A stretch of DNA of 64,000 bases from Geosiphon pyriformis uo1. Its lineage: Eukaryota > Fungi > Glomeromycota. The stretch spans positions 452,763 through 516,762 of the forward strand of contig JAAOMT010000057.1 in assembly GCA_016748015.1 (NCBI GenBank), given 5' to 3'. The translations under genes were made by a program, and so were the position numbers. A model generated the notes under the pieces. That model saw only the letters and a program-made list of their open reading frames with translations, was not told the origin of the DNA and made no database searches. This document shows positions 26,027-61,884 of the stretch, one piece after another (the stretch's first letter is position 1; every line of letters begins with the position of its first letter).

Positions 26027-26082
<56 letters not shown>

Positions 26083-37245: not shown

Positions 37246-37280
<35 letters not shown>

Positions 37281-37906: not shown

Positions 37907-38832
37907 TGTTATAGGTGATTATTTGGGATCTCAAATCAAATAACAAACTTATAACTTGGTGTTCAATAGCTGAATTATGTTGGTAATATTTGAAGATTGT
38001 TTGTATCTGAAAGTTTTAATTGAGTCTTTTTTATAATAAACAGAGATTTAATAATTGTTTTTAATAGCCTTCCGAAATCACAATTTCATCAATTTTTTTC
38101 TTGGCTTGGTAGCCAGCAATTCTCTGATAAGTAATCCTTAAATTCAAGTATCTACTCTTTTACAGAAGTCTTTTACCAGGCAATTCTTGATATTAATAAC
38201 TCAGCATTTAATTCTTAATCAATTAATAAACAACAAAGAAATAAAATACAAAAGAAAATTAAAGAAAATAAAATATAAGCCAAGGTAATAAAGTTAGTAT
38301 TCCATCAATAGCTGTGATCAAGAGCTATTCTTTTAGTATAGTTAAGTATTAGCAGCTATTAACATGAAGTATTGATAATTAAAGTCTGATAAATATTTAT
38401 CAATCATATAATAGCAACATGAATTGGATATAAATAAGTATTTTATTGATATTTTGATAATTTTATTTCAATAAATATGAACTATCTGGGAAGTGATTAG
38501 TGAATAAATAGGAAGGAAAGTCCAAATTAAGAGGTTTTGGTTCTGATTCTGTCTTTTTTGCTTCTAATACTCTTGCTATATATATATAATTTAGATTCTA
38601 TAAGATTGCTTATATTCTCGAGCAATATGCTATAATTTTTTAAGCAATACTTATATTGCTGAACAATGTGCCCTAATTTTCTAATATTGCTTTACATTGC
38701 TAAGCAATGTGCTGTAATTTCTAATATTGCTCCACATTGCTGAGCAATGTATTCACATGCCAATTACTACTCTCCTATTGGTCTATTTGTTTTCCTACTA
38801 TTTTCTTTTATACTTTTTCTTTATGAATAACA
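37907..38832 (-). repeat. 3' LTR of A (926 bp, 4 palindromic units)
   Basis: TG...CA termini on both strands; PPT adjacent. Confidence 0.92.
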
Positions 38833-38845
38833 TTATCTCCTTCTT

Positions 38846-39481
38846 TTAATATTGAGCTCTGTTAAAATTTTCACTTTGAATTAAGTCTAATACTTCTTTT
38901 TCTAATACTATTTGTTCAACTTTGTTTCTTATATTTTCGATTTATGCATTGTTTATTCTTCCTTATTGGTTAATGGTAATTGTCTCCATGTTGGAATGTA
39001 ACAATATTTCTGGGTAATTTTGAAATATTGTGTGTAGTTGATAGATTGTTCTAATATATAGTAATAGATTTGTCTTCTTTCTAATAATATTTTCAATATT
39101 CTGTATTATTTCTTGATTGAATATTCTTTTGGTTTTATCAAGATATAATTTTTGAATGTTCAATTTTTGTTCCAACTGATAGTAGCAGTATGGTATTAGA
39201 AGTTGTTCTGTTTATTGTTTCCAATTATCTTTTGAAAGTTTTTTTGTTGGAATCATGATGGGTATTTTCTTAAAAGTGTTTTTTACTTTCTCTACTATTT
39301 TATCTGATCTGTTTCTTGATTGTTTTTGTGGTCACTGGTATGGTGTACTTTTTCTTTTTTGTTTAGTGTTTCAATAACAGATTGTTTGGTGGTTAATGAC
39401 AATTTCTATGTTTAATTGTTGTTGACTTAAGGCCTGAAACAATTGTTGAGCTAAGATGTAAATATAATCTGGTATTTCCAT
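38846..39481 (-). pseudogene. ORF3 of element A (212 codons including stop), unknown function
   Basis: MEIPDYIYILAQQLFQAL...FNRAQY*; same 636-bp length as, and collinear with, 60401-61036. Confidence 0.75.
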
Positions 39482-42400
39482 TTTTTTTGATGTTTTTGTT
39501 GCATATACTGTGTCTTTATATATTCTTTTGGTTGTTTAATTTAACATGTTTGGTTTAATGATTATAATTGGTTTTAGATCTTATGGAATCTTATCTGGTT
39601 GAACTAGTATTTATTGTACTCCCAGTTGTGGAATATTATTGGTGAATGACAATACTATATGATAATATGGTTTCAGTTAATTATTATGTGCTGCTTTGGC
39701 TAAGATTTTGTTGTCTTATCTTAATTTATAAGCTCTATTTCCTAGAATTTTTTCTATGTGAAATGGTCCATCTTATTTGGGGTCAAATTTTCCCACTTCA
39801 TTGTTTTTCCATTTTAATACAAGTAAGAGTATTTTGTTTTCAATTCTAAATTTAACTGGTTTATCCAATAGTTGGTTATCATGTCTTTTTTTTTGTTTTT
39901 TTTGTAACTTTTGAATATTATCAGCTGCTCTTTACTATTTGTTTTTTAGTATTTCCATTAAATTATATGTTTTTCTTAACAATGTTTCTTGGAAATTGTC
40001 TTCTGTTATTGGTTTAGTTAGATATGTGCTGACTTCTATCTCTACTAATATTATTGCTGTTTTACTGTATATTAATTCAAATAGTATTGCTTGTGTAATG
40101 TCTTGCTTCATTATCTAATAAGCAAATAATACTGATAATATAAACAAATTCTATTTGTCTTAATTTTTTTGGCTAATTTTGGCAATTGCTTTACACAATG
40201 TTCTATTGAATTTTTCGACTAAGCCATTGATTTGTGGATAATATGGTAATGATAATAATTTTTTTATTCCAAATCTTTGGCTTAATTCTGCTAATGTTCT
40301 ATTCACAAAGTAAGTTCCTTGGTTAGATAATAATTTTTTTGGACATTTATGTCGATAAATCAAATTTTGATGAACAAATTCAGCAATGAATTCTGCATCT
40401 GTTTTTTGAATGGCTTTTGTTTTTGGCCACTTAGTAAGATAATCTATGACTATTGCTATATATCTGTTTCTTTTGCTAGTTATTTTTAATGATTTGACTA
40501 AGTTAATTCCAATGTGATTGAATGGTTGTTCTACTTTAATTGGTCTCAAAAACTTACTGGGTTTTGTTCTTCTTCTTCTCTGATAAGCATCACAATTTTG
40601 AACATATTAGATAATATCTGGATATATAGATGGCCAATAGTATCTTTTTCTGGTTTTTTTCATGATTGCTTCTTTATGAAAATATCCTGCTGTTAGATCT
40701 GAGTACATATTGAATAGTATTGTTTTTTTTTCTGGTTCTGTAATTACTCTGAGTGGTTGGTCTGAATTTTTTCTGTTTTTCTGATATAATATATTTTGGT
40801 AATTAATAAAATATTTGGATTGTTGTTTTATGTTGTTCTATTTCTTTGAAAATAATTTTTTCTTAAACTGCTGGGTATTAATATAGTGTTGAAGTTGTTA
40901 ATATTTTTGTGTATTTATTTTTGTTATATTTTTAGATTGAAATGTTCTTAGATTTGTCTCATTCATAACAAACTGTCAACATTTCCATTTTTTTTCTTTT
41001 TTTGTAATGTACTGTATAATTAAATGATAAAAGTTTTATTTTTCATCTAATATAGTACTTATCTTCAAATTTTTGCTTCTGGATTGAAGTCAATTTTTTA
41101 TGATTAGTGTATATGTCAAATTTCTGACTTAAGTATTTCTTTCATTTTATGACTGCCCAATAGATAGTTAAGTGTTCTAATGCTGGTGTTCCATAGTTTT
41201 TTTCAGCTGGACTTAAGCTGTGACTAACATATGCTACTGGGTGTTCTCTTCTATCTGGTTTTTTCTAAGATAGTACAGCTCTTAATACTTGACCCAATAC
41301 ATCAGTTGTGATTATGAATGGTTTGCTATAATCTGAATAGATCAGTACTGGAGCTTGAATAAGCTTTCTTTTTAATGTATTAAAAGCCTCTTGCTAGTTT
41401 TCCGTCTATTTATATTTGGTGTTTTTTGTTTGGAGCTGGTATAATGACTGAGCCAGTTTAGAAAAGTCTTTGATAAAGTGATAATAGTAACCTGCAAATC
41501 CTAAGAATGCTTGTAGTTCAGTCAAGTTGGTGAGTACTAGAAAGTTTTTAACTATCTCAATTTTGTCTGGATCCATCTTAATTTCATCTTTGCTCACAAC
41601 ATGTCTCAAAAATTTTAATTTTGTTTTGCCAAAAAAGCATTTGGTTGCATTTAACTTTAATCTGGCTCTTTTTAGTCTTTTAAATACTTGTTGGAAATGA
41701 TGTAAATGATCATCAAATGTCTTTGAAAACACGTTGGTATTATCCAAATATATGATTACTGATTTTCATAATAGTCCAATATAGACAATTTCCATAAGCT
41801 GTTAAAATATGGCTGAAGTATTTATTAAGCCAAAAAGCATAACTTTAAATTCAAAATTTTTTTCTCAGGTTGTAAAAGCTGTTTTCTCCTTATTTTCTGG
41901 TTTCATGGCTACTTGCCAGTAATTATTGTCTAAGTTTAAAGTTGAGAACCATTTTTTTCCTCCAAAAACATTGAAAAGTTCTTGGATCTTTGGAATTGGG
42001 TAGCTATCTTTTTTTGTTACTCCATTAAGTTTTTAGTAATCTACACAAAAGCAGATTTTTCTATTCTTTTTATGAACTAGTACTATTAGTAATGACCATA
42101 GACTCATTGATAATTAAATTAACCTATTGTCTAACATCTGATTGATTTTTTGTTAGATGATTTTATGGCTTGCTGGTGGTATTTGGTATGCTTTTTGTTT
42201 AATTGGCATTGTATCTCTAGTTTTGATTTAATGTTGAATTATGTTAGTTCTGCCAAATTTATTTTTACTAACAAAAATGTTATTGAAGTTGTTGAGTAAT
42301 ATCTTAAGCTGCATATATTGTAGTGAATTTAAATTTCCCAAGTTTATTTGTTCTAATTGTTCTAGTTGGAACAGATAATATTTTTCTTATTCATATATTG

Positions 42401-42779
42401 TTTGTGATGTGATATCCACATATCCACACAGTTGTAGAAAGTCTAAAATAGGGTTTGGTGGTTGTTCTTCAACTTTAGTGCTTAAATATTCAATGGTAGT
42501 TTCTGTTGGTATTTCAATGACATCTCTTATTATATTGTAGATGAAAATTTTGATATGTTTTAGACTTTTGGCTAGTATGTAAAAATTGGTAAATTCCATC
42601 TTTCCTGATTCACAAATGATAGTTTTCACTTCAAAAATTTGAGCTTGATTCTTTATTCTCTTTTCTATGACTAATATGTACTGGTTATATGATAAAATAA
42701 AAATTGATTAACAGGTGGAGATAATTTTTTCTTTGTCAATAACTTCTTTTTTTGCCATATTAACTGGTACATCTATTCT

Positions 42780-43155
42780 ACTTATGAATCCAAATTCACT
42801 AATCCCTCTACTGTAATCTCTAATTCTTCCATGTTTCTCACTAATACTAATTGAGCTATTTTAACTAGAGATAGAAATATTGTCTGTGCTATTTTTTTAT
42901 TTGGCTCTATGATATAAGTCTTTTCTAAATCATTTTGTAGTATTGCAATAATATTTTTTATATATCTTGTGTCAATTATTCTTTCTCTGATATTGATTCC
43001 TCTTTTTGCTAAACTACTTTTAGATGCTAATTAAACCATCATTGTTGCTGGAATTTCCAGTGCTACTTTGAAATCAATGCAGGTGCATGAATGTAGTTCC
43101 AATTTGATGGTTTTTTTTTCAGATATCTCAAATCAAACTTTGCATCCATATCATG
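42780..43155 (-). pseudogene. dUTPase domain of element A pol
   Basis: DAKFDLRY / LASKSSLAKRGI / IIDTRYIKNI / KIAQTIF: decayed dUTPase motifs 1-4, with a motif 5 remnant. Confidence 0.85.
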
Positions 43156-46100
43156 TATGCATTTGGGTATAATACCTTTATTATTATCACTGAACCATTT
43201 AAGTTCTTGCTTCTTAGTAAGGTCAGAAAACATGATATATTGTTTTGGATTTAAATTAGAGTTCAAACTATTGTTATTGTTATTGCCAATTTAAATGGAG
43301 CTAAAACCATTGTTTTCATTGTCATCATTGTTAGAATTTGAATTGAAATGAAATGTTGATTCTGGTTCTAATATACAGCTGCTAATTGGTTTTTTTTCTT
43401 CTGAGATCATGTAAATTATGCATGATGGTGAATTGTAGATAAGGTTACACTTATTACAATACTGAAAGTCATATGAAATCAAACAGTGGTCACATAATCA
43501 GGTGTTTATTTCTTCCAAGCACTATTTTTGCTCTTTTTTTGTTGGTGCCAAATTCCGGTAATGCTTGTAGAATTTCTTTGGATCTGTTTTAATATCTAAA
43601 AATGTGTTTAAATTGGGAATGAGAACAATATTAACTGGTTCTGGAGAATTGTTTTTTATCTCCAGGATTTTATTGGGTGAAGCATCTTCTATTTTGGCAT
43701 TGGTCATTTGCCAGATCTCATCTTTGTTGTGCAAATAACTGTCCAAGCAAGAGATTACTCAGTGCCATATGGCAGTAATAGATATGCCACAACTAATCCA
43801 GTTGCTTATGAAGATCGTGCACTGACATGAAGTGTCACATATTTCTCTTTGACCAAGAATGTTGTTCTATATTCCCTTATTAAGTAATTGTTTATTACAA
43901 GTGAGACATGGTTTGTTGTTCCACTTGTTCTGTCTTTTTGAATAGTCATAATATTTTCTATGGTATGACTTGCAATAATAATGTGTTCTGGTCTAATAGT
44001 CTTCATTAGATGCTATTCATGCTCTTATGGAGAATAGCTTCTTGTTGCAATCTTAACATTTGAGAAGAATATATGATGGCTTCTTGATGGGTTTGTGTAA
44101 GTATAATTGTTTTTAGCTACTAGTTATTTCTTCTATGGCTGTGGTTTCTTCAGGTTTGTCTTCTTCTTTTCCTTTTTCTTTGTTGTTCTAAGAAAGTATT
44201 GGTGGCAGTTTGTTGTGGTCAGTGTTAGTCCATAAGACTTGGTAGGCTTTTCAGATAGATTTGTTTTCTTCTTTTAAATGAATTAGCAGTGCTGGCATAG
44301 TGTGGGATTTGAAATAACTGCACATGACTGGTACCTAGATGTGATGTTTGTTCTGACTGAGTTGTAATTTCTAAGTAGTCCAATCAATTACAGTATTTGC
44401 TTTAATCAGCCAGTTATTTCCAACAAGAGCTTGGTATTGGGTGGCTTTTATAATTAGGACTTTAATAGGAATAGTAATGCCATTAACTTTAAAAAGGAAG
44501 TCATCAATTTTACTGATTGGAATTTTGGTTGTTTTATTAGCAGTGATAATTTTGGTGCTGGCAGTTTGATCAACTTGACAACCTAATTGGTCCATAAGTT
44601 GGTATGTAATGATGCTGCCTACTGAACCACTGTCCAAGATCAGTTTGATTAACTGACCATTGATCTTAGCATTGGTGTACATTGTGGTGATGAGTTTGGC
44701 ATCAAGAATGGCTTCACTAAAAAGAAGTACTTTGGTTGGTTCTTTGATTTTGAAGAGAAAAATTGCTGCTAATAATTTGTTGTTAGTGACAGTAGCTAGA
44801 GATATGTTACTGTTAATTATTTGTTTTGGAGTGCATTCTAAGTTGTTGAATGAGGTGTTTTCTGGAGTAACTAGTAGACTTAAATAGTTCTGGAAATTCG
44901 GATTTTAAATATATTTGGTTCTCAAACTTTGCAGTTGTAATTCTGAGAATTGGATTGAAAAACTGGAAATTAGTTGATGCATGATTATTGTTAATCTTCA
45001 GTTTTGTTGGGTATGGGTAACTCTTGGCCTTTGAGTTTTAGTGATTAATTAAGCTAAATTTGATGGCAGTGTTTGAATTTATTGGAATTAATAGATCACT
45101 TGGAACTGTGACTAATAGGTAGGTTGTGACTGTAGTTGATAAATTACAGGTGCTATAGGCTGATAAATTGGTGGTAAATACATTTACTACATCATTGGTG
45201 GGTAATAAAGTTGATAATAGTTCTGATTTGGGTGGTAATTTGGAATTTGAAATTGGTGATTAGGGTTTTGATATTGATTTCCTAATCATTGATTATTAAT
45301 TCTAGTGTGGTAATCAATCCTAATATGTCCTTGTTTATCACAATTGTGACAGATACATGTCTTTTGTTGCCACAATAGTCAAGTTGACAATGATATGAAA
45401 CATGACTGATTTTGGTAATAATTTCTAAGATTGTTATAACATTGTGACAGTTGATATATTGCCTGATTGTTGTTAGCTAAGTACTCTTCTAATTTCTAAT
45501 TGATTGAATCACTAAATTGTTTCAATTTAGAATCCAATTTAAATAATCTGTTTATTACTAGATTTACAGCTGGACATAGTTAGCTTCAAGTTTAGCTGAT
45601 TCAAAGTCTCTGGCATATGTAATTGCTGCTTACAAGTCAGCTAGATGTAATAAACATATATGTTAAAGGATACTACTGTGCAGACCATAAATAAACTGGT
45701 TCAAAATTTGTGGTGCTGTGAAATAGTTGACATTGATTGCTTGGATTTGGCACAGATTTCTATGAAAACATCCTAAGTAAGTGATAACTGCTTTAGTGTC
45801 TCCTTATTTTATAGTGGTGAAGGTATTAACCAAGTGGTTAATCCTGTTATTATTACTAAAATATCTTAGAAATTTTAGCTTAAATGTGTCGAAAGTTTGG
45901 GGTTTTTGAACCAAACTTTAATATCACGAGTTGGCAGTATTCTATAGAAAATAGAGAATGGCTTGTAGTGTTCTGGTGTCATTCCATCTATTGGCTGTAA
46001 TGGTTTTTTTTATGTTGTTGAGTCATACTTGGGTATTGTCTTCTTTGCCAGTAAATTTTTCTATTTTGGCAATTGAAACATAAGCTATTTGTACTGCAAT

Positions 46101-47034
46101 TTGTTGTGGTTGTTATGGTGGTTGTTAAAGTAGTTGCTGATGTTGTATTGGCTGTTGTAGTGATATAGCAACTGGTAGTGAATCAATTACAAGTTTTGGA
46201 GGTAAGTTTTGCTGAGTAACAATGTTGAGGTTTGGATTGTTCTAATTTTACTGAGTTTAATCAATCAGAGTTTGATTTTCTGGGTTTTCTGAAATTAAAT
46301 TTTGATAATTAAATTTCTGATCTTCATTTTTTTCTTCTTCTGATTCCATCACTTCTTAAAAACTCATGGCTCTGAAATTTGGTTGAGATAACAGTAATCA
46401 AAATCCTGATGGTGTTAGTGATCACAATTTAAATCCTTCAAAATAATCATTATAGGTTCCTAACAATTCTGCTTTCTTTTGTTTACTTTAAAATGGAAGT
46501 TAGACTAATGATGATTTTGCATTTGAGGTGGACATGCCTAGTGATGAAATATTGATAGTACTTCTAAGTTGGTGATTCTACTCTTGTTTTTTTCCAAGTA
46601 GGTGATTGTATTTTTTGAAGTGTTATCATTGGTGTTTGTAGTTTTTTTTTGCCTTTGTTTGCATAAGTAATTGGATATTTTTGTTGAGTGTGATTTTCAA
46701 TTTCTCTATTGATTTCAATAAGGATTGCTGTGAAATTATAATTTGCTAGTAGGCTAGTATTTTGAATTAATTTGTTGTAAAAATTTCCTCTTGCTGAGTT
46801 GGTTTCTACTAATACTCTTAGCAAATATGAGATTCTCTTATTAATATAAAAATTGAAGGCAGATTTTACTGATAGGTAATTGTTGGTTAATTTCAAGTGT
46901 TAACAATAATACTGAAATAAAGATTTGGCAAATCCTAAATAATTTGTTCTTATTCTTTCTGGTTTTGCCACTTTTGAATGGTTGTGTATTGGTGCTGGTT
47001 TTTTGTAGAATTATATCTCACAGAAAGCACTAAA

Positions 47035-47879
47035 TGTTACAGGTGATTATTTGGGGTCTTAAATCAAATAACAAATCTGTAACTTAGTGCTCAATAGTTG
47101 AATTATGTTGGTAATATCTGAAGATTGTTTATATCTAAAAGTTTTGGTTGAGTTCTTTGTATAATGAACAGAGATTCAATAGTTGTTTTCAGTAGTCTTT
47201 CAGAATCACAATTCTGTTAATTCTTTTCTTGGCTTGGTGGCCAGCAATCTTCTGGTAAGTAATCCTTAAATTCAAGTGTCTACTTTTTTGTAAAAGTCTT
47301 TTACTAGGCAATTCTTGATGTCAATAACTTAGTATTTAATTTTTAATCAATTAATAAACAACAAAGAAATAAAATACAAAAGAAAATTAAAGAAAATAAA
47401 ATGTAAACCAAGGTAATAAAGTTAATATCCTATCAATAGCTATGATTAAGAGCTATTGTTCCAGTATGGTTAAGTATCAACAGTTATTAACATGAAGTAT
47501 TAATAGTCAGAGTCTGATAAATATTTTTTAATCATATGATAGCAACATGAATTAGATGTGGATAAGTATTTTATTGATATTTTGATGATTTCACTTCAGT
47601 AGATACAAACTATCTAAGAAGTAATTAGTAAATAAATAGGAAAAGAAATTCAAACTAAAAGGTTTTGGTTCTGATTCTGTTTTTTCTGCTTTTAATGCTC
47701 TTGCTATATATACATAATTTAGGTTCTACAGAATCACTCACATTCCCAAGTAATGTGCTATAATTTTTTAAGCAATGCTTACATTGCTAAACAATGTGCT
47801 TACATGCTAATTACTACTCTCCTATTGGTCTATTTGTTTTTTTACTATTTTTTTTTATATGTTTTCTTTATGAATAACA
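47035..47879 (-). repeat. 5' LTR of A (845 bp, 2 palindromic units)
   Basis: TG...CA termini; followed on the minus strand by the PBS TT-TAGTGCTTTCTGTGAG. Confidence 0.92.
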
Positions 47880-50717
47880 CTAATATTGTTAGCTGTTGTT
47901 CTATGATTGTTTTTTAATGTTTCTATATGCTGATATGTTTTTTGGTATAAAGTAGTTTCAAAATTTTTTTTGGTATTGTTTTTGTTAAAAAAAAAGATAT
48001 TTTTTATTTAATAGATAGAGTAGTTTTTTTTTATAGATTAGTTTGAATAGTGTAAACTGGGTAATATTTTGCTTTAATATTTGGTATATAAATAATACAG
48101 AAAGTATAAATAAGTCTTATTCTTACACATTTTTATAACTTAATTTTGCTAATGTTTTATACAGTGTTTAGTTAAATTGTTTTACCAGTTTATTTGTTTG
48201 TAGGTGATAAAATAACAATAAGAGTTGTTTTATTCCAAACTATTAGCTTAGTTCAGTTAGTGTACTATTGATAAAATATATTTCTTGGTTGAATAACAAT
48301 TCTTTTAAACATCTATGATGGCAAATTAGATCTTAGTATACAAACTTAGCTACTGTTTTAGCATCAACTACTTGGATCACTCTGGCTTCTGGCCACTTGG
48401 TAAGATAATTTACAACTACAGCTATGTAACAATTTTCCTTGAATGTAATTAAAAAAAGACCAACCAAATCAATCTTTATTTTATCAAATAAATTTCCAAC
48501 TAGAATAGATCAAAATAGTTCCATTGTTCTGGTTTCTCTTTTTTATTGGCATGAATTATTGTTAAGAACATATTCAAAAATGTTTTTATATATTATTGGC
48601 CAATAGTATAGATTTGTGGTTTTTTCTAGAATAGTGTTTTTATTGAAGTGTTTTGCAGTTGGGTCAAAATACATACTATGCAAAACAGTTTCTTTTTTAT
48701 TGTTTTTTATAATTTGTTGTGGAATAATATAATTTTAGCATTCTTGATAGTATAATTGGTTGTTCTAAATAAAGTAATTACAAGCTTGTTTCTATATACT
48801 ACTTTGTTTTTGTTAAGATAATAGCTCCTTGAACTGAAAAGTTAATAAATACTAATGTAATCACTAATAGGTAGTTGTATCTATGAATTTAAAATTAGAT
48901 TTGTATTATCTTTGATAAACTGTTGGCATTAGTGTTTTTGAATTCTTTTTTATAATGAACTTTGTATGAGAATTGTTGCAGATAAGTATTCTATTATGTA
49001 TATCTTCCTTCTAGTTGTGGTTTACTGAATAACCAAATAAGTCTCTTATAATTAGTATATAGGTTAAATAGTTGGCAAAGATAGTGTCTCCAATTTTGTA
49101 CTGCTTAGTAGATAGCAAAACATTCTAAATTTGTTATGTTATATATTTTCTTTACTGCACTAATACTGTGATTGGCATAGACAATTAGATGCTCTCTATT
49201 GTCTGATTTAATTTGTAACAGAATGGCTTTTAATGCATTTTTTAAGATGTCTGTAGCAATGATGAAATGTTTATTAAAATTTAAATAAATCAATATTGGT
49301 GTTTTTATTAAGCACTATTTAAAATAATTAAACACTTTTTGTTGTTTTTTTTTTATAAGTACAGAACATATTTCAAAAGTAAATGATAAAAAAATTTTGC
49401 AATGTCAGAGAAGCCTTTGACAAATCAACAATAATATCTTGTCAGTCTTAAAAATTCTTGTAATTCTTGCAGATTAATTAGAACCAGAAAATTTTTAACT
49501 TTCTGAACTTTATTTGGATTAAGTTTTACTTTGTTTTTGCCTATTACATGTCTCAGAAATTTAAGTTCAGTCTTTTCAAAAAAACATTTGTCAGAATTAA
49601 GTTTTAGTTTAATGTTATAAAGATAATTAAAGACTTGTTAGAAATAGAGCAAGTAGTTGTTAAATGCTTTAAAAAATACATTGGTGTTATTCAAATATAT
49701 TATGACTGATTTCCAAAAAATTTTCTTGTACACAATATTTATAAGATGCTAAAAAATAGCAGAAGTATTGCAAAGTCCAAAGAGTATTATATTGAATTCA
49801 AAATTTTTGTTTTGTGTAGTAAATATTATTTTTTTTGTCTTTGGAGTTTATTTTGACTTGCCAATATTCACTGGCTAGATCCAAAGATAAAAACCATTTC
49901 TTATTTTTCAAATTATTCAGAATTTTTTGAATCAAGAAAGTAAAATAATTATTCTTTTAAATAATACTATTTAACTTTTAGTAGTTTATGCAAAACTGTA
50001 TTTTCCCATTTTTTTTGATGGCCAATATGACTGGAGAAAACCAAAGGCTTAACAATTTTTTGATTAACTTATTATTTAATATTAATTATACTTTTTGTTT
50101 AATCAGATTATTGTTTGCTGGAGTTACTTGATAGATTTATTGTTTAATAGATTATACATCTTTTATGTCAATCTGAGTTTTATAATATCAGTATATTCAA
50201 ATTTATTTTTACTGGTAAAAACATTGGTGTATTGATTCAAGAAAATTTTGATTTATATTTATTGGAGTATACTTAAGTTTCTTAAATTTAGTTTAGTAAT
50301 TTTTTTAGATGTAAACAAATAATTTTCTTTTGGCAGGTTTCATACTTGTAAAGTAATATCACAAAATAAAAACAGTTGTACAAAGTTCAAAATAGGCTGT
50401 GGTTTCTCAGAATTCTGAATGTTGGAAGAAATGAAGCCAACAAAAATTCTTTCAGAAATTTCAATAACATTTTTAGTAAGGTTGTAAATAAAAATTTTAA
50501 AATTTTTATGAGCCATAATAGAGATATATAGGTTAGCAATATCAGGTAGGCAACAGATTTCTAGATTGGCTTTAAATAATAAAACTTAGTCTTAGATCTT
50601 TCAATTCACCTTAAAAATATACTGTTAATATAGAAAAATAAAGATGACTGTATTAGTGTAGATGAATTCTATTTTGTTACTGTCTTTTTTTACAAAATTA
50701 ATTAGTACATTCTCTTT

Positions 50718-51092
50718 TCCACTTAATTTAAACCCATTAATATCTTTGGTAGTAAAATCTAGTTTTTTGTGTGATGTAACTGGGATTAATTGTGATATTT
50801 TTACAAAAAGTAGGAAAATAGCTTGAGCAATCTTTTTTTGTGATTTAATTGTATAGAGTTTATTGAAATTGTTTTATAGTATAATAATGATGTTTTCTAT
50901 ATATTTGGCATTAATAATTATTCCTTTTATGTTGATTTTTTTTACAAGACTTGACTGTGAGACAACTTAAATCATATTATTAACAAAAATTTTTAAAGCT
51001 ATTTTGAGATCTATTTTTACAAGAGAGTATAAAGTTATAACTACAGAGAATTGTCTGAAGTATCTTAAATCAAATCCAGCATTGTTTTCATG
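50718..51092 (-). pseudogene. dUTPase domain of element B pol
   Basis: HENNAGFDLRY / SQSSLVKK / KGIIINAKYIENI / KKIAQAIF / KDINGFKLSG. Confidence 0.82.
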
Positions 51093-51809
51093 TGTTTTTT
51101 CAAAGCAAATTTCTTTATTGTCATTACTATATTATTTCAATTCTAATTTCTTAAAGAGATTAGAGTAGATAAAATACTGTTCTATTTTGGTAGTATTATT
51201 TGGCTTTTAAAATAACATGTTCTTAGCATCAAACTTATATTATTCTTCTGGTTTTAATAGTTTAATAATAGAGTATAGTGTTCTTGAAGGTAAATTAAAT
51301 ACGAAATTACACTTATTACAGTATTGAAAATAACAAAAAATCAAGCAATAACCACACAGTTTTGTATTAAGATCTGCAAGTCTCTGTTTTTGTTCTTTTT
51401 AGATTAGAGCCAGTTCTTAATATTAGTTTTAGAATGCTTTGGAATCATTTGTAAATATGTTGTTTATTTCTTTAATTGTTACTAAGACATTTTTTATAAT
51501 ATGTATTTTCTTAATAATGGCTTCTTTTCATTTGGCTGTGACTATTTTCTAAATTTTTTTTTTATTATGGGGCCATAAATCCAGTCAGTTTATTATTTAA
51601 CTATATGCTGTTGTAAATGGAATGTTTTTTTTGGTTCAGTTATTTATTAGGATAGTGTATTGACACAATTCATTACTGTTACTTATAGAAATTAAGAATA
51701 TTATAGTTAAAGAAATAGCCAATCAGAAGTAAGCATAATAATAAAAAAATTGTAAAATTCCAGAATTCCAGAATTCCAAAAATTTTATATAATATTAATT
51801 ATATATATA

Positions 51810-53164
51810 CAGAGGGGTATAAAAAGTATTGGATACTTAATATAATATATAAAAAAGGCTATATATTATAATACCATTACCAATTTAAGCCATAATTTTT
51901 TTTATAATTACTTATAGTTATAATCTACAAATCAACATAAATCATGTCTTTGTAAAACACAATAGTGGATTATATGCATATATATAAAATATCAAACATT
52001 TTTGTTATAAAAAAATTTACCACATCAAATGTGTCTTGGAAAAGAACTTTCTGAATACCAAAAAGGAGGAATTATTTCAGCAATAAAGTTAGGACATACA
52101 AACAGTGAGATTTTCATGACTATTGGATGTTTACATTCTTCTGTAATACATGTATAGAAGTCATACGAGCTAAAAAAACTTCCTAAAAAATGAATGGGCC
52201 AACCACAAATTTTTAACAAATGTGCACATGAACAACTCAAATATTCAATAATGGAGAATAAAGAAACCTGCCACCAAACTTTTTCTCAAATACGATTGAA
52301 TTTTATTAAAGATACCAACAAATCTATTTCTATACAAACTATTTGAAATGGATTAGCTCAAGAAGAACTTCACTCGTGCATTTCTCGTTTCAAGCCATTA
52401 ATTTTCAAATTAAATAAAGAAAAATGTTTACAATGGGCTTGTACTTATGAAAATTGGACAGTAGAAGATTTTAAATGAGTTGTTTGGTCAGATGAATCTA
52501 CATATACACAATTTAGGACTACAGAATTTGGATGTGTATGGCATAAACCTTCCGAAGACTTTCATAAGAATTGTATTGTGGCCACAGTTAGAAAAAGCTT
52601 TGGTCACATGTTTTGGAGATGTTTTTCATGGGTTGGTTTAGATCTTTTAGTTCCTTTGGTTGGTCATATTACTGGAGTTATACACCACGAAACCTTGGCT
52701 AATTATGCAATTCCTACGGTAAAACTTTATGCAAAAAAAACTAAAAAAAATTTTTTTTTCCAGGAAGACAATGCATCAATCCACACATTAAAAGTCACAC
52801 ATTCTTTTCTTACCTCTTCAAATGTTGAATTACTTCCTTGGCCAGCACAAAGTCCTGATATTACTTCAATAGAAAATCTTTGGTCATATATTGAAGTTAA
52901 AATTTGTCAACATAATTTACAACCCTCAAATATTGTACAATTGGAACAGTGGGTTAAGGAAGAATGGAATGCAATACTTGTAAATTACTATCGTAATTTG
53001 ATCAAGTCTATACTATGTCGAGTTCAAGCTATTTTTAAAGCAAATAGAGGTCAAACAAAATACTAACATGTATTTTAATATAATAATAAAAAATTAATAA
53101 TTCATAAGTTAGTTCTTTTATATAACATATTATAAAAGTGTCCAATACTTTTTATACCCCCCTG
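51810..53164 (+). mobile_element. Tc1/mariner DNA transposon, 1355 bp, 29-bp TIRs, TA TSD
   Basis: Left TIR CAGAGGGGTATAAAAAGTATTGGATACTT (51810-51838) matches the reverse complement of 53136-53164 with 2 mismatches. TA at 51808-51809 and 53165-53166. Confidence 0.97.
52029..53066 (+). pseudogene. Tc1-family DD34E transposase (345 codons, 4 in-frame stops, no frameshift)
   Basis: HTH start KELSEYQKGGII, then WSDES, FQEDNASIH and WPAQSPDITSIENLW; 34 residues between the second D and E. Confidence 0.95.
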
Positions 53165-54011
53165 TATAACAGTAGCATTAGAAGTAAGAAAAAGCAAAAT
53201 CTAGTTCCAGTTAGTATTTCCTTTTTTATCTATTAATTAACCTTTACTTCATGGATAATTAATATCAACTGAAGTAAATTTATTATCCCATATTAAATAA
53301 AACATATTTGTTATTATCTAATCTATGCTGTTATTATTTGATTGAGAATATTAATTCATCTTTTATTATTAACACTTTATGTTAACAATATCCAATACTT
53401 AACTATACTGAAACAATAATTCTTAATTATGACTATTGATGGAATACTAATCTTTTATTTTTTTATTTATTTTTTATTTTTTTTATTTGTTTTATTTTGT
53501 GTTTGTTGATTTATTAATTGATTAAAAGATTAACGTGTGAAATACTGACATCAAGATATAGCACTAATAAAAAACTCAAAAATAAAGCTAAACATTCGGA
53601 ATTAAGAATAGCTTATCAAGAAATACTGGCCACCAAGCTGAGAAAAAAATTGATGGAATATATATTCTGAGAAGTGACAGATACCAAAATATACCAATTT
53701 GAAGATTGGAAAAGAAATTAAAACAAAACATCACAAAAAATATTACCATTGAATCTCTGTTTATTATACAAAAGATTCAACCAAAATCTTCAAATATTAC
53801 TAATACTATTCAATTATTAAGCACCAAGTTATGGGTTTGTTATTTGTTTTTATACCCTAAATAATCATCTGTAATATTTGGTGCTTTCTGTGAGATATAA
53901 TTCAACAGAGAACCAACACCAGCAACAACCATGCAGGAAAGTGGCAGACCAAGAGAAAACAAGGGAAAATCACTTAGGATTTGCGAAATCCTTATTTTAC
54001 TATTACCTTTG

Positions 54012-54810
54012 AAAAACTCATTAAATTAAAACTCTGATTATTCAAGACCCAATCATTAAAACCCCAACCATTTGAAACGTACCATTGATAAATTTGTTAA
54101 AAACTCATTAAAATTAAAACTCCGATTATTTAAAACCCAATCATTAAAACTCTGAACATTCGAAAATTACTGTTGAGAAATTCGTTAAAACTTGTTAAAT
54201 TAAAACTCTGATTATTCAAAATCTGATCATTAAAACCCTAAACATTCGAAACTTACCATTGATAAATTCATTAAACTTTATTAAATTAAGAACTCTAATT
54301 ATTCAAAACCCAATCATTAAAACTCCGAACATTCGAAAATTACTGTTAATAAATTCATTAAAAATTTGTTAAATTAAAACTCCATTTATTCAAAACCCAA
54401 TCATTAAAACCCCAAACATTCGAAACTTACTATTGATAAATTTGTTAAAAATTTGTTAAATTAAAACTCCAATTATTCAAAACCTGATCATTAAAACCCC
54501 AAACATTTGAAACTTACCATTAATAAATTCATTAAAAACTTATTAAATTAAAACTCCAATTATTCAAGACCTAATTATTAAAACCCCAAACATTTGAAAT
54601 GTACCATTGATAAATTTGTTAAAAACTTGTTAAATTAAAACTCTGTTTATTCAAAATCCAATTGTTAAAACCCCAAACATTCGAAACTTACCTTTGATAG
54701 ATTTGTTAAAAAAACTTGTTAAATTAAAACTCTGATTATTCAAGACCTGATTATTAAAACTCCAATTATTTAAGACCCAATTGTTAAAAAACCCAAACAT
54801 TTGAAACCTG
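54012..54810. repeat. ~87-bp tandem minisatellite, ~9 copies
   Basis: The anchor ACATT(C/T)GAAA recurs at 54068, 54156, 54242, 54329, 54416, 54503, 54590, 54677 and 54797. Confidence 0.93.
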
Positions 54811-55113
54811 ATAATTCCAACCCTGCTATCATACAAAGAAACTTACTGTCGATAAAACTCATTAAACTTTTAGCAATTCAAACTCTGAGAATTATTCAAA
54901 AATCCGAACATTCAAAGTCTGATAAATTCCAAACACCACTATCATACAAAGAAACTTACCTAATTCCCACAGTACCAATAAATCAGAAAAATCCACCTGA
55001 CAGCCCTAAGTCAGAATATTGGGATGTAGTTACAATCCACTTCCATGTGTCATATATTTGAAGAAGAGCCAATCAGTGAGAACAAATAGGAATCGGAATC
55101 AGAACTTAATCCC

Positions 55114-55303
55114 AATTCAAACTCCACTGATAACAGCAATGATTCAAACACTACTAATGACAGCAACAATTCAAACTTCGCTAATGACAACAATGATTCA
55201 AACTCTGCTAATGACAACAACAATTCAAACTCCACTAATGACAACAACAATTCAAACTTCACTAATAACAATAACAATTCAAACTCTGCCAACAACAAAT
55301 TCA
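55114..55303. repeat. 27-bp tandem repeat, ~7 copies (ATTCAAACTCCACTAATGACAACAACA)
   Basis: Gives the 9-aa periodicity IQTxLMTTT seen in ORF 55019-55462. Confidence 0.9.
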
Positions 55304-55586
55304 AACTCCACTTCAAACACTGAACAATATATCATGCTTCTAGATCTTATAATGGAGCAGAAATTAACTAAATTCAGTAATAATAATGAGAGCATTATGT
55401 CTAAACATACACATAATACAGATGCAAGATTTGAAATTAATATTTTGGACAGACTGCTATAGTTAAAAACCCCAGTCATGTATAAAATTAGATTTACAAA
55501 TAGCAATAAAAATTACAGCAACAACATTAATACAAAAGAGAAATTTAGAAAATTTTGCAGAAGCTTAATATTAAAGAAAGAAATAA

Positions 55587-56569
55587 TGTTACTTATAAAA
55601 AAAAAATACAAGAAAATAGTAGGAAAAAACAAATAGAGAAAATAGACCAATAAGAGAATAGTATTTAGCATATGAGCACATTGCTCAGCAATGTGAAACA
55701 TTGTCAGAGAATTACAACACATTGTTCAGCAATAAGCACATTGTTAGAAATTACAGACACATTGCTCAGCAATGTAGAGCAATGTCAGAAATCATGGCAC
55801 ATTGCTCAACAATGTAAGCATTGCTTGAGAAATTATAAAACATTGCTTGAGAATGTGAACAATCTTGTAGAACTCAAATTATATATATATAGCAGTAGTA
55901 TCAGAAGTTAGAAAATTAGTCAATTAGGCTCAAAATTAAGAAAACTGAAAGTCAGTAGGACTTTCAGAGTCAATTAGACTCACAGGTTATAATTATTAAA
56001 TATTCTTCCTTTAAAAGATAGAATACTATAACTTGAAGTAAAATTACTCTCATATTAATGTTATTATCCACTACTTAACCTGCTGGCACAATAGCTCTTG
56101 ATCACAGCTATTAACAGAATACTTATTTTTTATTTTATTTTATTTTCTTTATTTCTTTATTTTCTTTTATTTTCTTTATTTTATTTTCTTTTCTTTTGTT
56201 ATTCACTAAATTGATTAAAGAGTTAAGTGCTAAGTTATTGATGTCAAGAATAGCCTGGTAAAAGACCCCAAAGGAAGGGTATTGGAATTGAGAATTTAAG
56301 GATAGCTTACCAGAAAGGCATTTCTGCCAAGATTACCAGCCACCATGCTGAGAAAAAAATTCGATGGAATTGTGATTCTGAGAGGCTATGAGAAAGACAA
56401 CAATTAAATTTCTGTCCATTATACAAAAAACTTCACAACAAAATCTTCAGATCTACCAAACCTTCAGATAAAACAACACCTTCAGAGATACCAACACCAA
56501 TTATATTAATTGAGCACCAAATTACAGGTTTGTTATTTGATTTAAGACCCCAAATAATCACCTGTAACA
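55587..56569 (+). repeat. LTR (family 1, palindrome subtype, 5 units)
   Basis: TGTTACTTATAAAA...CACCTGTAACA, preceded by a PPT. Confidence 0.9.
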
Positions 56570-56724
56570 ACAATTCCAGCTCTGCTCAATATAACAATGA
56601 AAATAACAATAATTCGGACTCTGATTCAAAACCCAAAACATATATCGTGCTGTTTAATCTCACTAAAAAGCAGGAACTTAAATAATTCAGTGATAACAAT
56701 GAAGATATTATGTCAGAACAAGCA

Positions 56725-57102
56725 CATAATACCAATGCAGAGTTTGATTTAAGATATCCAAAGAAAGATGCTTTCAAATTGGAACCACATTTGTACACTT
56801 GTATTGATTTGAAAATAGCACTAGAAATTCTAGCAATAACAATAGTTCAATTAGCATCTAGGAGTAATCTAGCAAAAAAAGGAATTAACATTAGAGGAGA
56901 AATAATTAATGCAAAATATATAGAAAATATCATTACAATGCTATAAAATAATTCAAAAAAAGCCTACATTATAGAGCCAAATAAAAAGATAGCACAGACA
57001 ATATTCCTGTTTTTGGTTAAAATAGCTCAATTAGTATCAGTAGGAAACAAGAAAGAATTAGGAATTACAGCTAGAGGAATACAGGGTTTTGGATTCACAG
57101 GT
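56725..57102 (+). pseudogene. dUTPase domain of element D pol
   Basis: All five motifs are recognisable: NAEFDLRYP, ASRSNLAKKGI, GEIINAKYIENI, KIAQTIF and RGIQGFGFTG. One stop. Confidence 0.92.
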
Positions 57103-60100
57103 AAAATAAATGTACTAGTTAATATGGCAGAGAAAAAAATTATTGACAAGAAAGAAATTATTTCTACCTGTCAATTAATTTCCATTCCACCATATGATTA
57201 ATACATAATAGTCATAGAAAGAAAAATAAAAGACCAGATTCAGATTTTTGAGACAGAAGCAACACTTTGTAAATCAGAAAAGATTGGATTAGTCAATCTA
57301 CACATACCAGCCAAAAACCACAGACACATCAAAATTTCTATTTATAATAACACAAAAAATATCATTAAAATACTAGAAAAAACTATTATTGGATACTTAA
57401 CCACTGAAATTGAAGACCAACTGCCAAACACCATTGCAGACTTTCTACAACTGTGTGGATATATAGATATTACATCACAAACAATATATGGACAAGAAAA
57501 ATATTATCTGCTCCAACCAAAACAATTGGAACAGATGAACTTAGGAAATCTAGACCCACTACAATATATGCAGCTTAAGGTGTTACTCAACAACTTCAAT
57601 AACATCTTTGCTAATAAAAATGAATTTGGAAGAACTGACATAATTCAGCATCAAATCAAAATTGGAAATGCAATGCCAATTAAACAAAAAGCATAGAAAG
57701 TACTACCAGTTAGCCATGAGATTATTTGTTAAGAAATCAATCAGATGCTTAATAATAGATTAATTCAGTCATTAATAAGCCCATGGTTATCACCAGTAGT
57801 ATTAATCTATAAAAAGAATGAAAAAATCCACTTTTGTGTAGATTACTAGAAACTAAATGGAATAACAAAAAGAAATAGCTACTCAACTCCAAAAATCCAA
57901 AAACTTTTTGATGCTTTTGAAGGAAAAAAATGGTTTTCAACTTTAAACTTAAACAGTGGTTACTGGCAAGTAGCTATAAAACTGGAAGATAAAGAGAAAA
58001 TGACTTTTACAACTTGAAAAAAAAACTTCGAATTTAAAGTGATGACATTTGGCTTGATGAATGCTCCAGCCATATTTCAATGGCTCATAGAAATTGTCTA
58101 TACAGGACTACTATGGAAATCAGTAGTCATATATCTGAATGACACCAATGTGTTTTTAAAAATATTTGATAATCATCTATATCATCTTCAACAAGTATTT
58201 GAAAAACTCAGATGAGCAGGATTGAAATTAAATCCCAACAAATGTTTCTTTGACAAAACAAAACTCAAGTTTTTGGAACATATTGTGAGCAAAGATGGTA
58301 TCAAAACAGATTTAGATAAAATTGAGATTGTTAAGAACTTTCCAGTACCAAATAATTTTATAAAATTAAGAGCATTTTTGGAATTTGCTGAATACTACTG
58401 CCACTTTATCAAAAACTTTTCCAAAATAGCTCAATCACTACACCAACTCCAAACAAAAAACACCAAATATGAATGGACTAAAACTCAACAAGAAGCTTTT
58501 GATATATTAAGAAGAAAGCTTATTCAAGCCCTAGTATTGATCTATCCAAATCATAACAAACCATTCATAATTACAACTAATGCATCTAGTCAAGCATTAA
58601 AAGCAGTACTATCTCAGAAAGAACTGAATGGATAAAAACACCCAGTAGCTTATGTCAGTAGAAACTTAAGTTCAACTGAAAAGAACTATAGAACTCCAGT
58701 ACTAGAACACTTAGCTATCTATTAGGCTGTCATCAAATGGAAAGAATACTTGAGTCAGAAGTTTGATGTCTACACTGATTACAAAGGATTGACTTCAATT
58801 CAGAAGCAAGAATTTGCAGACAATTGTCATACCAGATAGAAAATAGAACTTTTACTATTTAATTATACAGTACACTATAAAAAAGGAAAAAAAAATGGAA
58901 ATGCCAACAGTTTGTCACTAATAAAATAAGTCTAAAAACATTTTCAATCCAAAAATATAACAAAAGATGAATATACAAAAATACCAACAACTCTAATATT
59001 ATATAAATACCCAATTGTTCAAGGAGAAATTATCTCAAAAAAAACAAAATAACATAAAACAACAATCAAAATATTTTATCAACCATCAAAATATACTTTA
59101 TCAGAAAAACAAAAAAAATCTAGATCAACCAACCAGAGTAATCACAGAACCAGAGAAAGAGACAATATTATTCAACATGTATTCAGACTCAACAGCAGAA
59201 CATTTTCACAAAAAAGCAACCATAGAAAGAATCAGAAAAAAATACTATTGGCCATCAATATATCCAAACATCATCTAATATGTTCAAAATTGTGATGCTT
59301 GTCAGAAAAGAAGAGGAACGAAACCCAGTGAATCATTAAAACCAATCAAAGTGGAACAACCATTTGATTGTATTGGAATTGACTTAGTTGGACTATTAAC
59401 AATCACCAGTAGAGACAACAGATATATTGTAGTAGCTATAGATTATCTTACAAAATGGCCAGAAGCAAAAGCCATTTAAAGAGCAGATGTAGAATCTATT
59501 GTCAAATTCATTTATCAAGATTTGATCTGTTGACATAGATGTCCAAAAAAACTATTATCAGATTAAGGAACTCATTTTGTAAATAGAACATTAGCAGAAT
59601 TAAGTCACAGATTTGAAATAAAAAGACCATTATTGTTACCATATCATCCACAAACAAATGAGTTAGTTGAAAGATTCAACAGAACATTGTGTAAAACAAT
59701 AGCCAAGATTAGCCAAGAAAACCAGAATGAATGAAATTTATTTATACCATCAGTATTATTTGCTTATTGGACAATAAAACAAGACATTACACAAGCAACA
59801 TCATTTGAATTAATATACAGTAGAACAGCAATATTACCAGTTAAGATAGAAGTCAAAACATATCCAACAGAATCAATAACAAAAGAGAATTTTCAAAGAA
59901 CATTGTTGAAAAAAACATATAACTTAATAGAGACACTAGAAAACAAATGGTGAAAAGCAGCTGATAACATCCAAAAGTCACAAGAAAAACAAAAAAAAAG
60001 ACACAATAACCAACTACCAGAGAAACCAGTCAAATTCAGAATTGGAGACAAAGTATTTCTACATTGTACCAAAACAGAAAAACAATAGAATGGAAAATTT

Positions 60101-60400
60101 GATCCCAAATGAAACAGACCATTTCACATAGAAAAAATTTTAGGAAATAGAGCTTATAAATTAAGATTAAACAACAAAATATTAACCAAAGCAGCACATA
60201 AAGATTGACTGAAATTATATCAAAACATAATATTAGCATTTACCAGTAATATTCCACAACTGGGAGCATAGAGAATACTGGTTCAACCAGATAAGATTCT
60301 ACAAGACCTGGAACCAATCATAGTTATTGAACCAAACACATCAAATTGAACAAAGAAATATATAAAAACATAGTGGATGCGACAAAAACAACAAAGAAAA

Positions 60401-61036
60401 ATGAAAATACTAGACCATATTTATACTTTAGCTTAACAATTGTTTCAGACTTTAAGTCAATAACAAGTAAACATAGAAATTATTATTAACAATCAAACAA
60501 TTTGTTATTGAAATACCAAACAAAAAAGGAAAAATACACCATACCAGTAACCACAAAAACAATCAATGAACTGGTCAGATAAAATAGTAGAAAAAGTAAA
60601 AAACACTTTTAGAAAAATAACCATCACAGTTCCAACAGAAAAACTAGTGAAAAAAAATTGGAACCAATAGATAGACCAACTTCCAATACCATACTGTTAC
60701 TATCAATTAGGACAAAAAGTAGATATTCAAAAATTATACCTTAATAAATCCAAGAAAATCTTCAATCAAAAGATAATTCAGAACATTGAAGACATTATTG
60801 GAAAGAAAACAAACTTGACATTACATATTAAGACCATTTATTGACTACACACTATATTTCAAAACTACCCAGAAGTATTGTTACACTCTGACATAGAAAC
60901 AATAACCATCAACCAATAGGGAAAAATAAACAACTCACAAATCAAAGAAATAAAGAGCAGAGTAGAACAGACACTACTTGAAAAAGAAGTATTTGACATA
61001 ATTCAAAATGAAGATTTTAACAGAGCTTAATATTAA
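60401..61036 (+). pseudogene. ORF3 of element D (212 codons including stop), unknown function
   Basis: MKILDHIYTLA*QLFQTL...FDIIQNEDFNRA*Y*; no frameshift; the stop abuts the PPT AAAGGAGGAAATAA. Confidence 0.75.
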
Positions 61037-61048
61037 AGGAGGAAATAA

Positions 61049-61884
61049 TGTTACTCATAAAAAAAAAAACAGATATAAAAAATAATAGACCAATAAGAAA
61101 GTAGTAGTTAACACATAAGCACATTGCTTAGCAATGTGGAGCAATATTAGAAATCATGGCATATTGTTCAACAATGTGGAGTAATGTTAAAAAATTAGAA
61201 CACATTGCTCAGCAATGTGAGCATTGTTTAAGAAATTATAGCACATTACTTGGGAATGTGAGTAATCTCATAGAACATCAATTATGTATATATAGTGGTA
61301 GTATTAGAAGTAAAAAAGACAGATCTCTTAGTTTAGATTTGATTTAAGCAATCTTCCACATTACAAATATCAATAAATAATTATTTACTATCTTAATCTA
61401 CTCTCTACTATTAATAATTCATGTTAATAGTTGCTGACACTTAATTACACTAGAAAAATAGCTCTTAATCATGGTTATTGATGAGATATTAATATGCAAA
61501 TTACTTTGACTTATTTATTATTATTTTTTCTTGTTTTATTTTCTTTGTTGTTTGTTAACTTAATTAAAAAATTTATATGTAGAGATACTGACATCAGAAT
61601 ATAGCACTGGTAAAAGACCCAGGAATAAGAGTAGACACTCAGAATTGAAAATATCTTATCAAGAGGATTATTGGCCATTACACTAAGAAAAAAAATTAAT
61701 AAAACTGTGGTTTTGGGAAGCTATAGATAAAACTATCAATTAAATCTCTGTCTATTATACAAAAAACTCCATCAAAACCTTCAGATACAAACAACCTACC
61801 AATATTACCAACCAGAACAACTGTTAAAACACCAAGTTATGGGTTTGTTATTTGCCTTGAGACCCCAAATAATCATTTGTAACA
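61049..61884 (+). repeat. 3' LTR of D (836 bp, 4 palindromic units)
   Basis: TGTTACTCATAA...ATTTGTAACA, following the PPT. Confidence 0.92.

What the first reader, a model, noticed from the sequence alone, without database searches (positions are those of the whole stretch)
37907..61884. Gypsy family with a dUTPase between protease and RT, in three copies from two LTR families
Seen: decayed dUTPase motifs 1-5 just upstream of RT in A (42780-43155), B (50718-51092) and D (56725-57102), plus a stub in C. A and D share LTR family 1 while B uses LTR family 2, so the domain is probably ancestral to a radiating clade rather than a one-off capture. Established: dUTPases are common in some retroviruses but rare in Ty3/Gypsy elements; from recall, Tuber Tmt1 is a fungal example with this placement. 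Inference: the enzyme would limit uracil incorporation during reverse transcription. It may come from a viral, bacterial-endosymbiont or host donor.
Basis: partly seen in the sequence, partly recalled or inferred. Interest (0 to 1): 0.8.

Follow-up and report, generated by a model that had tools for sequence, protein, structure and literature searches.

The report
Fungal retrotransposon with doubled dUTPase fold
These dead fungal jumping genes carry a real dUTPase between protease and reverse transcriptase, a layout already known, followed by a second, likely inactive domain of the same fold that also appears, unlabelled, in many distant Gypsy elements, and their integrase is likely a separate gene.

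Summary
Observation confirmed. A, B and D carry a dUTPase (PF00692: D 52 bits, B 48; A frameshifted but keeps the motif-3 Asp). All 120 best hits are Geosiphon pyriformis gene models; transversions between D and B fall at third codon positions (53 of 84), so it was a selected coding domain. dUTPase between protease and RT is known (Tuber, Postia, rotifers, planarians). Two additions. (1) The ~100 residues after it are a motif-less dUTPase-fold domain; a matching domain precedes RT in 88 of 119 other Gypsy-type hits, and its profile finds yeast dUTPase in the PDB (E 3e-5; 26 of 32 hits are dUTPase-fold). (2) The copies belong to a Glomeromycotina-associated clade whose Pol stops after RNase H; integrase starts at its own ATG 10-31 nt later. 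Only 1 of 16 clade relatives has dUTPase, so 'ancestral' holds for the Geosiphon-type families only; the donor is unresolved. The scan noted the split integrase and a doubled dUTPase before on other DNA; I found neither, nor the widespread relic, in print in 10 searches.

The parts
37907..47879 (-). Element A: full-length decayed Ty3/Gypsy copy, inserted into B's integrase tail, 4-bp target duplication CTAA
47035..47879 (-). A 5' LTR (TG..CA), followed by a PBS-like stretch
37907..38832 (-). A 3' LTR, preceded by a polypurine tract
44410..44673 (-). A aspartic protease (DSG)
   Evidence: PF13650 40.1 bits
43200..44370 (-). A Cys-rich region and Asn/Ser-rich linker between protease and dUTPase; no Pfam family
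   Evidence: translation printed; no hit on this part of P0003; conserved in intact P0564
42770..43195 (-). A dUTPase, two 1-nt deletions, motif-3 Asp and Tyr kept
42460..42769 (-). A second, motif-less dUTPase-fold domain
   Evidence: aligned to D
40948..42182 (-). A RT-RNase H, ending at TAA 40950-40948
38849..40918 (-). A integrase frame (about 420 codons plus a 270-codon tail without Pfam hit), start position reads ATA, 29 nt after the stop
47880..51676 (-). Element B, Cys-rich part to integrase; gag-PR not in the window
50712..51134 (-). B dUTPase
   Evidence: PF00692 48.4 bits
48884..48897 (-). B RNase H stop (48897-48895), 10-nt spacer, integrase start position (ATA)
35067..37906 (-). 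B integrase tail, 3' region and 3' LTR of family 2 (35067-35950), interrupted by a solo LTR 36127-36941 (+, target duplication GCAG)
51677..55535 (+). Element C: 5' LTR split by a Tc1-like element, PBS-like stretch, gag start, 87-nt and 27-nt repeat arrays, dUTPase stub 55304-55535
55587..56569 (+). LTR with a polypurine tract in front (3' LTR of another copy) abutting D
56689..57105 (+). D dUTPase, one stop, motif-3 Asp reads Asn
   Evidence: PF00692 52.2 bits
57106..57420 (+). D second, motif-less dUTPase-fold domain (core 57175-57402)
57700..58935 (+). D RT-RNase H in frame with both domains, ending at TAA 58933-58935
58936..58966 (+). 31-nt spacer between RNase H stop and integrase ATG
58967..61030 (+). 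D integrase frame starting at ATG 58967, with tail
61049..61884 (+). D 3' LTR (family 1)

Best explanation
These are dead, nested Ty3/Gypsy copies whose long first reading frame holds gag, protease, a Cys-rich region, a five-motif dUTPase, a second likely inactive dUTPase-fold domain, RT and RNase H, while integrase is likely a separate gene behind a stop codon. In the active ancestors the dUTPase would have been packaged with RT, trimerised and turned dUTP into dUMP so that RT put less uracil into the cDNA (inferred from retroviruses). The second domain is most likely an older, dead dUTPase of the kind left before RT in many Gypsy lineages, kept for a structural role (inferred); the active copy was likely regained or duplicated beside it. 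Integrase would be made by re-initiation or from a subgenomic RNA (untested). The copies died by C-to-T decay on both strands after insertion, likely from cytosine methylation.
For: Pfam hits and order. Column counts in 120 relatives: motif 1 D 107, motif 2 S95 R104 S105, motif 3 D90 (N30) Y120, motif 4 Q120, motif 5 F120; 2 of 120 keep all 17 key residues. Intact natural relatives P0564 (PR-Cys-dUT-domain 2-RT) and P0134 (PR-dUT-RT-RH) keep all motifs. Third-position transversions: dUT D vs B 53 of 84 (p 2e-8), RT-RH 128 of 216. Domain 2: pre-RT domain in 88 of 119 RT hits; hhalign to domain 2 95.8%, to the dUTPase 86.8%, reversed controls under 0.5%; 19-row profile finds yeast dUTPase E 3e-5, the first 12 and 26 of 32 PDB hits are dUTPase-fold; 7 of 19 rows match PF00692 below cut-off; 0 of 81 rows keep motif 3; best hit of that profile in the whole window is D 57175-57402. 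Split: shared TAA in A, B, D, spacers 29, 10, 31 nt; clade of 18 rows (SH 99) in which 13 of 16 relatives end 1-10 residues after the RNase H end motif and none has integrase; integrase relatives start with Met, 42 of 120 in exactly D's register, 76 within 75-80. Decay: 106 of 109 LTR differences are transitions; CpG o/e 0.02-0.06 vs 0.87-1.01 in host genes.
Against: No activity or expression data. Direct comparison of domain 2 with the neighbouring dUTPase was not significant (0.5% and 2.1%), so the link is transitive; the window hit is weak alone (E 0.019); selection on domain 2 is marginal (8 of 14, p 0.06). Both folds were poor (pLDDT 42 and 59) and no fold search matched domain 2 to a dUTPase. 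The integrase search was limited to 156-1208 residues and gene callers start proteins at ATG by construction; no intact DNA spanning the RNase H-integrase junction of a relative was obtained, only three pairs of records with equal contig length. None of 15 clade relatives without dUTPase has the relic either.
Confidence: 0.75

Rival explanations
1. Domain 2 arose by tandem duplication of this family's own dUTPase and only converges on the pre-RT domain of other Gypsy elements.
For: It sits directly behind the dUTPase; P0134 has the dUTPase without it and 0 of 15 other clade members have it.
Against: It scores higher against the distant pre-RT domain (95.8%) than against its neighbour (2.1%).
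Confidence: 0.2
2. Active dUTPase was ancestral in the whole split-Pol clade (or in Gypsy Pol generally) and was lost or degraded many times.
For: Element dUTPases score 119-170 bits with each other against at most 70 with any PDB entry, pointing to one origin; P0134 lies on another RT branch and has a gag/pol overlap unlike A; relics are widespread.
Against: Only 1 of 16 clade relatives has it and P0134's sister P0131 lacks it; exchange between element lineages explains this as well; a relic beside an active copy needs two events anyway.
Confidence: 0.35
3. The dUTPase was captured recently from the host or an endosymbiotic bacterium.
Against: Best PDB hit changes with the member (feline lentivirus, yeast, staphylococcal phage, an alga-type entry); best phage identity 38.8%; no relative in the prokaryote genome scan (exact-pattern method, weak).
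Confidence: 0.1
4. The stop and ATG between RNase H and integrase are decay artefacts and Pol was one polyprotein.
For: A and D share in-register stops inside integrase too, so shared stops can come from decay.
Against: Undecayed relatives end at the same place; spacer lengths 31, 29, 10 keep no common frame; integrase relatives begin in the same register.
Confidence: 0.07

Closest known systems
dUTPase-bearing fungal Gypsy elements: PosPlaTy3-5 (Postia placenta), Phanerochaete elements, Tuber Tmt1 (PMC2864245, passages read; Tmt1 paper itself not read)
   Same: dUTPase between protease and RT in a fungal Ty3/Gypsy element
   Different: Those were surveyed as chromodomain-type elements of Dikarya; here no chromodomain hit, Glomeromycotina-associated clade, second dUTPase-fold domain, separate integrase frame
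Bdelloid rotifer Juno, Vesta, TelKA (PMC5408684, passages) and planarian Burro (PMC6431247, passages)
   Same: dut or dUTPase-like domain between PR and RT, shared by whole lineages
   Different: Animal hosts, extra ORF3 or env; no tandem active-plus-dead arrangement mentioned in the passages seen
Retroviral dUTPases (non-primate lentiviruses, betaretroviruses; PMC4531489, passages)
   Same: Trimeric-type five-motif enzyme carried in the polyprotein; model for the uracil-limiting role
   Different: Tested in viruses, untested here; position differs; best-hit similarity to FIV for P0564 (70 bits) is not repeated for other members
Canonical Ty3/Gypsy (Metaviridae) Pol
   Same: LTRs, PBS-like and polypurine stretches, gag-PR-RT-RH-IN order
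   Different: Integrase follows a stop and has its own ATG instead of being cut from Pol (canonical layout recalled)

Membership tests
Trimeric dUTPase (PF00692) | Pfam score above the curated cut-off of 22 bits | tested here: met
   D 52.2, B 48.4; relatives 38-71
Trimeric dUTPase (PF00692) | Five motifs in order with motif-3 Asp and Tyr | tested here: met
   one search counts; A keeps the Asp; D and B read Asn; intact P0564, P0134 keep all
Trimeric dUTPase (PF00692) | dUTP hydrolysis, trimer formation | not testable with these tools
   no assay; no complex job run
dUTPase fold (domain 2) | Sequence-profile homology to dUTPases | tested here: met
   transitive; direct comparison not significant
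dUTPase fold (domain 2) | Structural match to the beta-clip fold | tested here: inconclusive
   model pLDDT 59, strand pattern similar to domain 1; fold searches matched domain 1 only
Active dUTPase (domain 2) | Catalytic motifs 1-5 | tested here: not met
   absent columns 141-250; 0 of 81 relic rows keep motif 3
Ty3/Gypsy LTR retrotransposon | LTRs with TG..CA ends, target duplication, PR-RT-RH-IN order | tested here: met
Ty3/Gypsy LTR retrotransposon | Integrase as C-terminal part of one Pol polyprotein | tested here: not met
   a variation of layout, not of kinship
Chromovirus | Chromodomain after integrase | tested here: inconclusive
   no Pfam hit on integrase end or tail of A and D, but the copies are decayed
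Chromovirus or any named Gypsy clade | RT placement with named reference elements | not tested
   the tree holds search hits only, no named references

The most novel reading that the evidence does not exclude
A catalytically dead dUTPase fold is an unrecognised, ancient part of Pol between protease and RT across many Ty3/Gypsy lineages, so dUTPase in Gypsy elements is not a rare capture but an old component that usually decayed into a structural (perhaps trimerising) module; the Geosiphon-type family carries a working enzyme and the relic side by side, in a clade that also makes integrase from its own gene.
Probability: 0.45. Interest if true: 0.72.

Novelty: new variant of a known kind. Interest (0 to 1): 0.52.

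Why it matters
The finding as stated is a new instance of a known layout. What would matter is the relic: if a dead dUTPase fold precedes RT in a large share of Gypsy elements, the textbook view of sporadic dUTPase capture changes, an unannotated Pol domain gets a fold and a testable role, and the origin of retroviral dUTPases can be re-asked. The family also belongs to a lineage in which integrase must be translated and packaged apart from Pol. It is very abundant: LTR elements cover 41% of the G. pyriformis genome (PMC11952901, passage) and over a hundred of its gene models are fragments of this family, which would inflate dUTPase counts in that proteome.

Tried and rejected
No whole genome held, so copy number and the host's own dUTPase were not examined. 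Folding P0003 failed (pLDDT 42); the P0564 two-domain model was middling (59) and its fold searches gave no Z of 5 or more and no Foldseek E under 0.001. Direct profile comparison of domains 1 and 2 was null. DNA scans for relatives found nothing in viral contigs, unrelated elements only, nothing in the first metagenome scan, two short loci without the RNase H-integrase junction in the second, and nothing in prokaryote genomes. The Atlas gave no answer. No RNA holder listed. A lentiviral origin was considered after and dropped because searches gave other best hits. A strict CpA-type RIP (recalled pattern) was rejected: mutated fractions by 3' base were 0.42, 0.42, 0.48 for A, C, T. A conserved +1 frameshift between RNase H and integrase was considered and dropped: spacers are 31, 29, 10 nt. 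A third ORF after integrase was checked and is unresolved. Ten literature searches showed no paper on dUTPase in Glomeromycotina elements, on a separate Gypsy integrase ORF, or on a widespread dead dUTPase fold, judged from listings and the passages read; the library lacks most subscription papers, a G. pyriformis genome paper was not held (I recall, unverified, that it lists dUTPase among expanded Pfam domains), and the dUTPase tree in the supplement of PMC2864245 was not opened.
Full report
Setting. The window is AT-rich, with intron-containing host genes on the left and nested repeats from about 35 kb. No whole genome is held. The D dUTPase finds 420 proteins; all 120 listed are Geosiphon pyriformis gene models at 66-76% identity, so the host is likely that Glomeromycotina fungus or a close relative (inference).

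Anatomy. A (37907-47879, minus) is the only full-length copy: LTRs 85.8% alike, a 4-bp target duplication, gag, protease, Cys-rich region, dUTPase, RT, RNase H, integrase. It sits inside B's integrase tail; B resumes at 37906 and ends in an LTR (35067-35950) that matches the LTR at 2477-3422, not A's. B is cut at about 51676 by C's LTR, and D starts at 56570 behind another LTR, so neither shows gag-PR. C holds a dUTPase stub reaching motif 1.

The dUTPase is real. D and B pass PF00692 (52.2 and 48.4 bits, cut-off 22). A is the same domain with two 1-nt deletions and keeps the motif-3 Asp. In 120 relatives the motif columns read D107 (motif 1), S95 R104 S105 (2), D90 N30 and Y120 (3), Q120 (4), F120 (5); the departures are those that G-to-A and C-to-T changes give. 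Gene models P0060, P0061, P0097, P0098 join protease and dUTPase. Two undecayed relatives from unnamed sources keep all motifs in one frame with protease and RT: P0564 and P0134. Transversions, which C-to-T decay does not make, fall at third codon positions: 53 of 84 for D vs B (p 2e-8) and 7 of 10 for D vs A, like RT-RNase H (128 of 216).

How old and from where. A tree of 54 domains shows A/D-type, B-type and two further groups; 8 of 10 representatives looked up are named G. pyriformis, 2 unnamed. P0564's domain scores 119-170 bits against seven element domains and at most 70 against the PDB, which points to one origin. But among 120 RT hits only P0134 has a dUTPase, and its RT sister P0131 lacks it. 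P0564 groups weakly with A and D (82/69). So the domain is ancestral to the Geosiphon-type families, and patchy in the wider clade. The donor is unresolved: best PDB hits differ by member, the best listed phage match is 38.8%.

Already known. dUTPase between PR and RT is described for PosPlaTy3-5, with Phanerochaete and Tuber elements cited (PMC2864245, passages), for rotifer Juno, Vesta and TelKA (PMC5408684, passages) and planarian Burro (PMC6431247, passages). dUTPase is also enriched among TE-related Pfam domains of Entomophthora muscae (bioRxiv 2023.09.13.557621, one passage). PMC3248453 has no 'dUTP' (passages); PMC2774666 mentions fungal chromovirus dUTPase (passage). The role in non-dividing cells and the rise of G-to-A changes without it come from lentiviruses (PMC4531489, passages).

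A second dUTPase fold. After motif 5 come about 105 conserved codons without Pfam hit (D 57106-57420). Direct comparison with domain 1 was null. But its profile hit, weakly and in one register, a stretch before RT in distant Gypsy polyproteins. Iterating from one of them, with P0134 left out, collected that domain in 88 of 119 RT hits, mostly 100-130 residues before the RT start motif, and in 0 of 15 members of the elements' own clade; hhalign gave 95.8% to domain 2 and 86.8% to the dUTPase, reversed controls 0.5% or less. A profile of 19 of these, which I picked by hand from the 81 full-length rows, finds yeast dUTPase at E 3e-5 in the whole PDB; the first 12 and 26 of 32 hits are dUTPases or dCTP deaminases. 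Seven of 19 match PF00692 below cut-off and three match the herpesvirus dUTPase-related family. The profile aligns to domain 2 of P0564 at 91%, hits domain 2 in 66 of 122 family proteins, and its best window hit is D 57175-57402 (E 0.019); none of 81 rows keeps motif 3. Named sources among the 120 RT hits outside the clade are animals; most rows are unnamed. Structure prediction did not settle it. An earlier scan note (e1-7508563), seen only after these tests, reports a doubled dUTPase on other DNA.

Separate integrase. A, B and D share a TAA a few codons after the RNase H end motif, then 29, 10 and 31 nt, then ATG in D and ATA in A and B. In a FastTree of 117 rows (5 of 120 hits dropped as too short) A and D fall in an 18-row clade (SH 99); 13 of the 16 relatives end 1-10 residues after that motif, two end 30 and 166 after, one is cut, and none has an integrase domain. 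Their clusters include Rhizophagus clarus, Funneliformis and Cetraspora records. The integrase finds 119 of 120 proteins with an integrase core and no RT, mostly 390-440 residues (search limited to 156-1208 residues), 118 starting with Met and 42 in exactly D's register, including R. irregularis and Entrophospora records. Three RT/integrase pairs have equal contig lengths. Among 4631 contigs of run X1, probably the window's own sample and not independent, none of the 40 differences shown (of 68) touches the stop or the ATG, and D's earlier stop at 58927 reads C in 98% of depth. Several earlier scan notes report this split on other DNA, often with a stop-start overlap; here there is a spacer.

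Decay. 106 of 109 differences between A's LTRs are transitions, split evenly between strands; CpG is nearly gone in the elements (o/e 0.02-0.06) but not in three host gene stretches (0.87-1.01), with no CpA preference. This fits methylation-driven deamination after insertion (inference; CG methylation of repeats is reported in R. irregularis, bioRxiv 2021.03.30.436303, passages) and says nothing about the dUTPase, which cannot prevent it.

Verdict. The finding is true and, as stated, a new member of a known kind. The tandem of an active and a likely dead dUTPase fold, the spread of that relic, and the separate integrase make it a variant worth following. Shown: domains, order, selection, stop and spacer. 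Inferred: enzyme activity and role, fold and role of domain 2, mode of integrase translation.

Noticed in passing
window 51811-53166 (+): Tc1/mariner-like element with terminal inverted repeats and TA duplication, DDE_3 hit 29 bits, inserted in C's 5' LTR; CpG less depleted (o/e 0.36) than the Gypsy copies
   Followed up: partly
window 43200-44370 (-); 51181-51676 (-); 63300-64000 (+): Cys-rich region of several CxxC pairs between protease and dUTPase, conserved in intact P0564, no Pfam family; other clade members carry a different Cys-rich insert at the same place
   Followed up: partly
window 38849-39660 (-); 60230-61030 (+): About 270-codon tail in frame with integrase in A, absent from the ~420-residue relatives, no Pfam hit, weak coding signal (13 of 25 third-position transversions); could be a fused tail or a third ORF
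   Followed up: partly
window 54004-54786 and 55113-55303 (+): 87-nt (29-codon) and 27-nt tandem arrays inside element C's gag and linker
   Followed up: no
window 61896-64000 (+) and 1-3422 (-): Two more gag-protease fragments of the family; D is inserted into the first, the second carries an LTR of family 2
   Followed up: partly
window 47019-47034 (-) and 53877-53894 (+): PBS-like stretch directly inside the 5' LTRs of A and C; priming tRNA not identified
   Followed up: no
L001 50-439 and 385-2025: In the P0134-type family gag overlaps pol in another frame, unlike A where gag and protease read in one frame
   Followed up: no
window 9628-27659: Host genes by translation (names recalled, not searched): tetraspanin-like, branched-chain keto-acid dehydrogenase E1 alpha, G-patch protein, RRM protein, G-protein beta subunit
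   Followed up: no
window 3423-4750, 22937-24117, 29587-31050: Very AT-rich stretches (GC 8-15%) that match one another weakly; possibly fully decayed repeats
   Followed up: no
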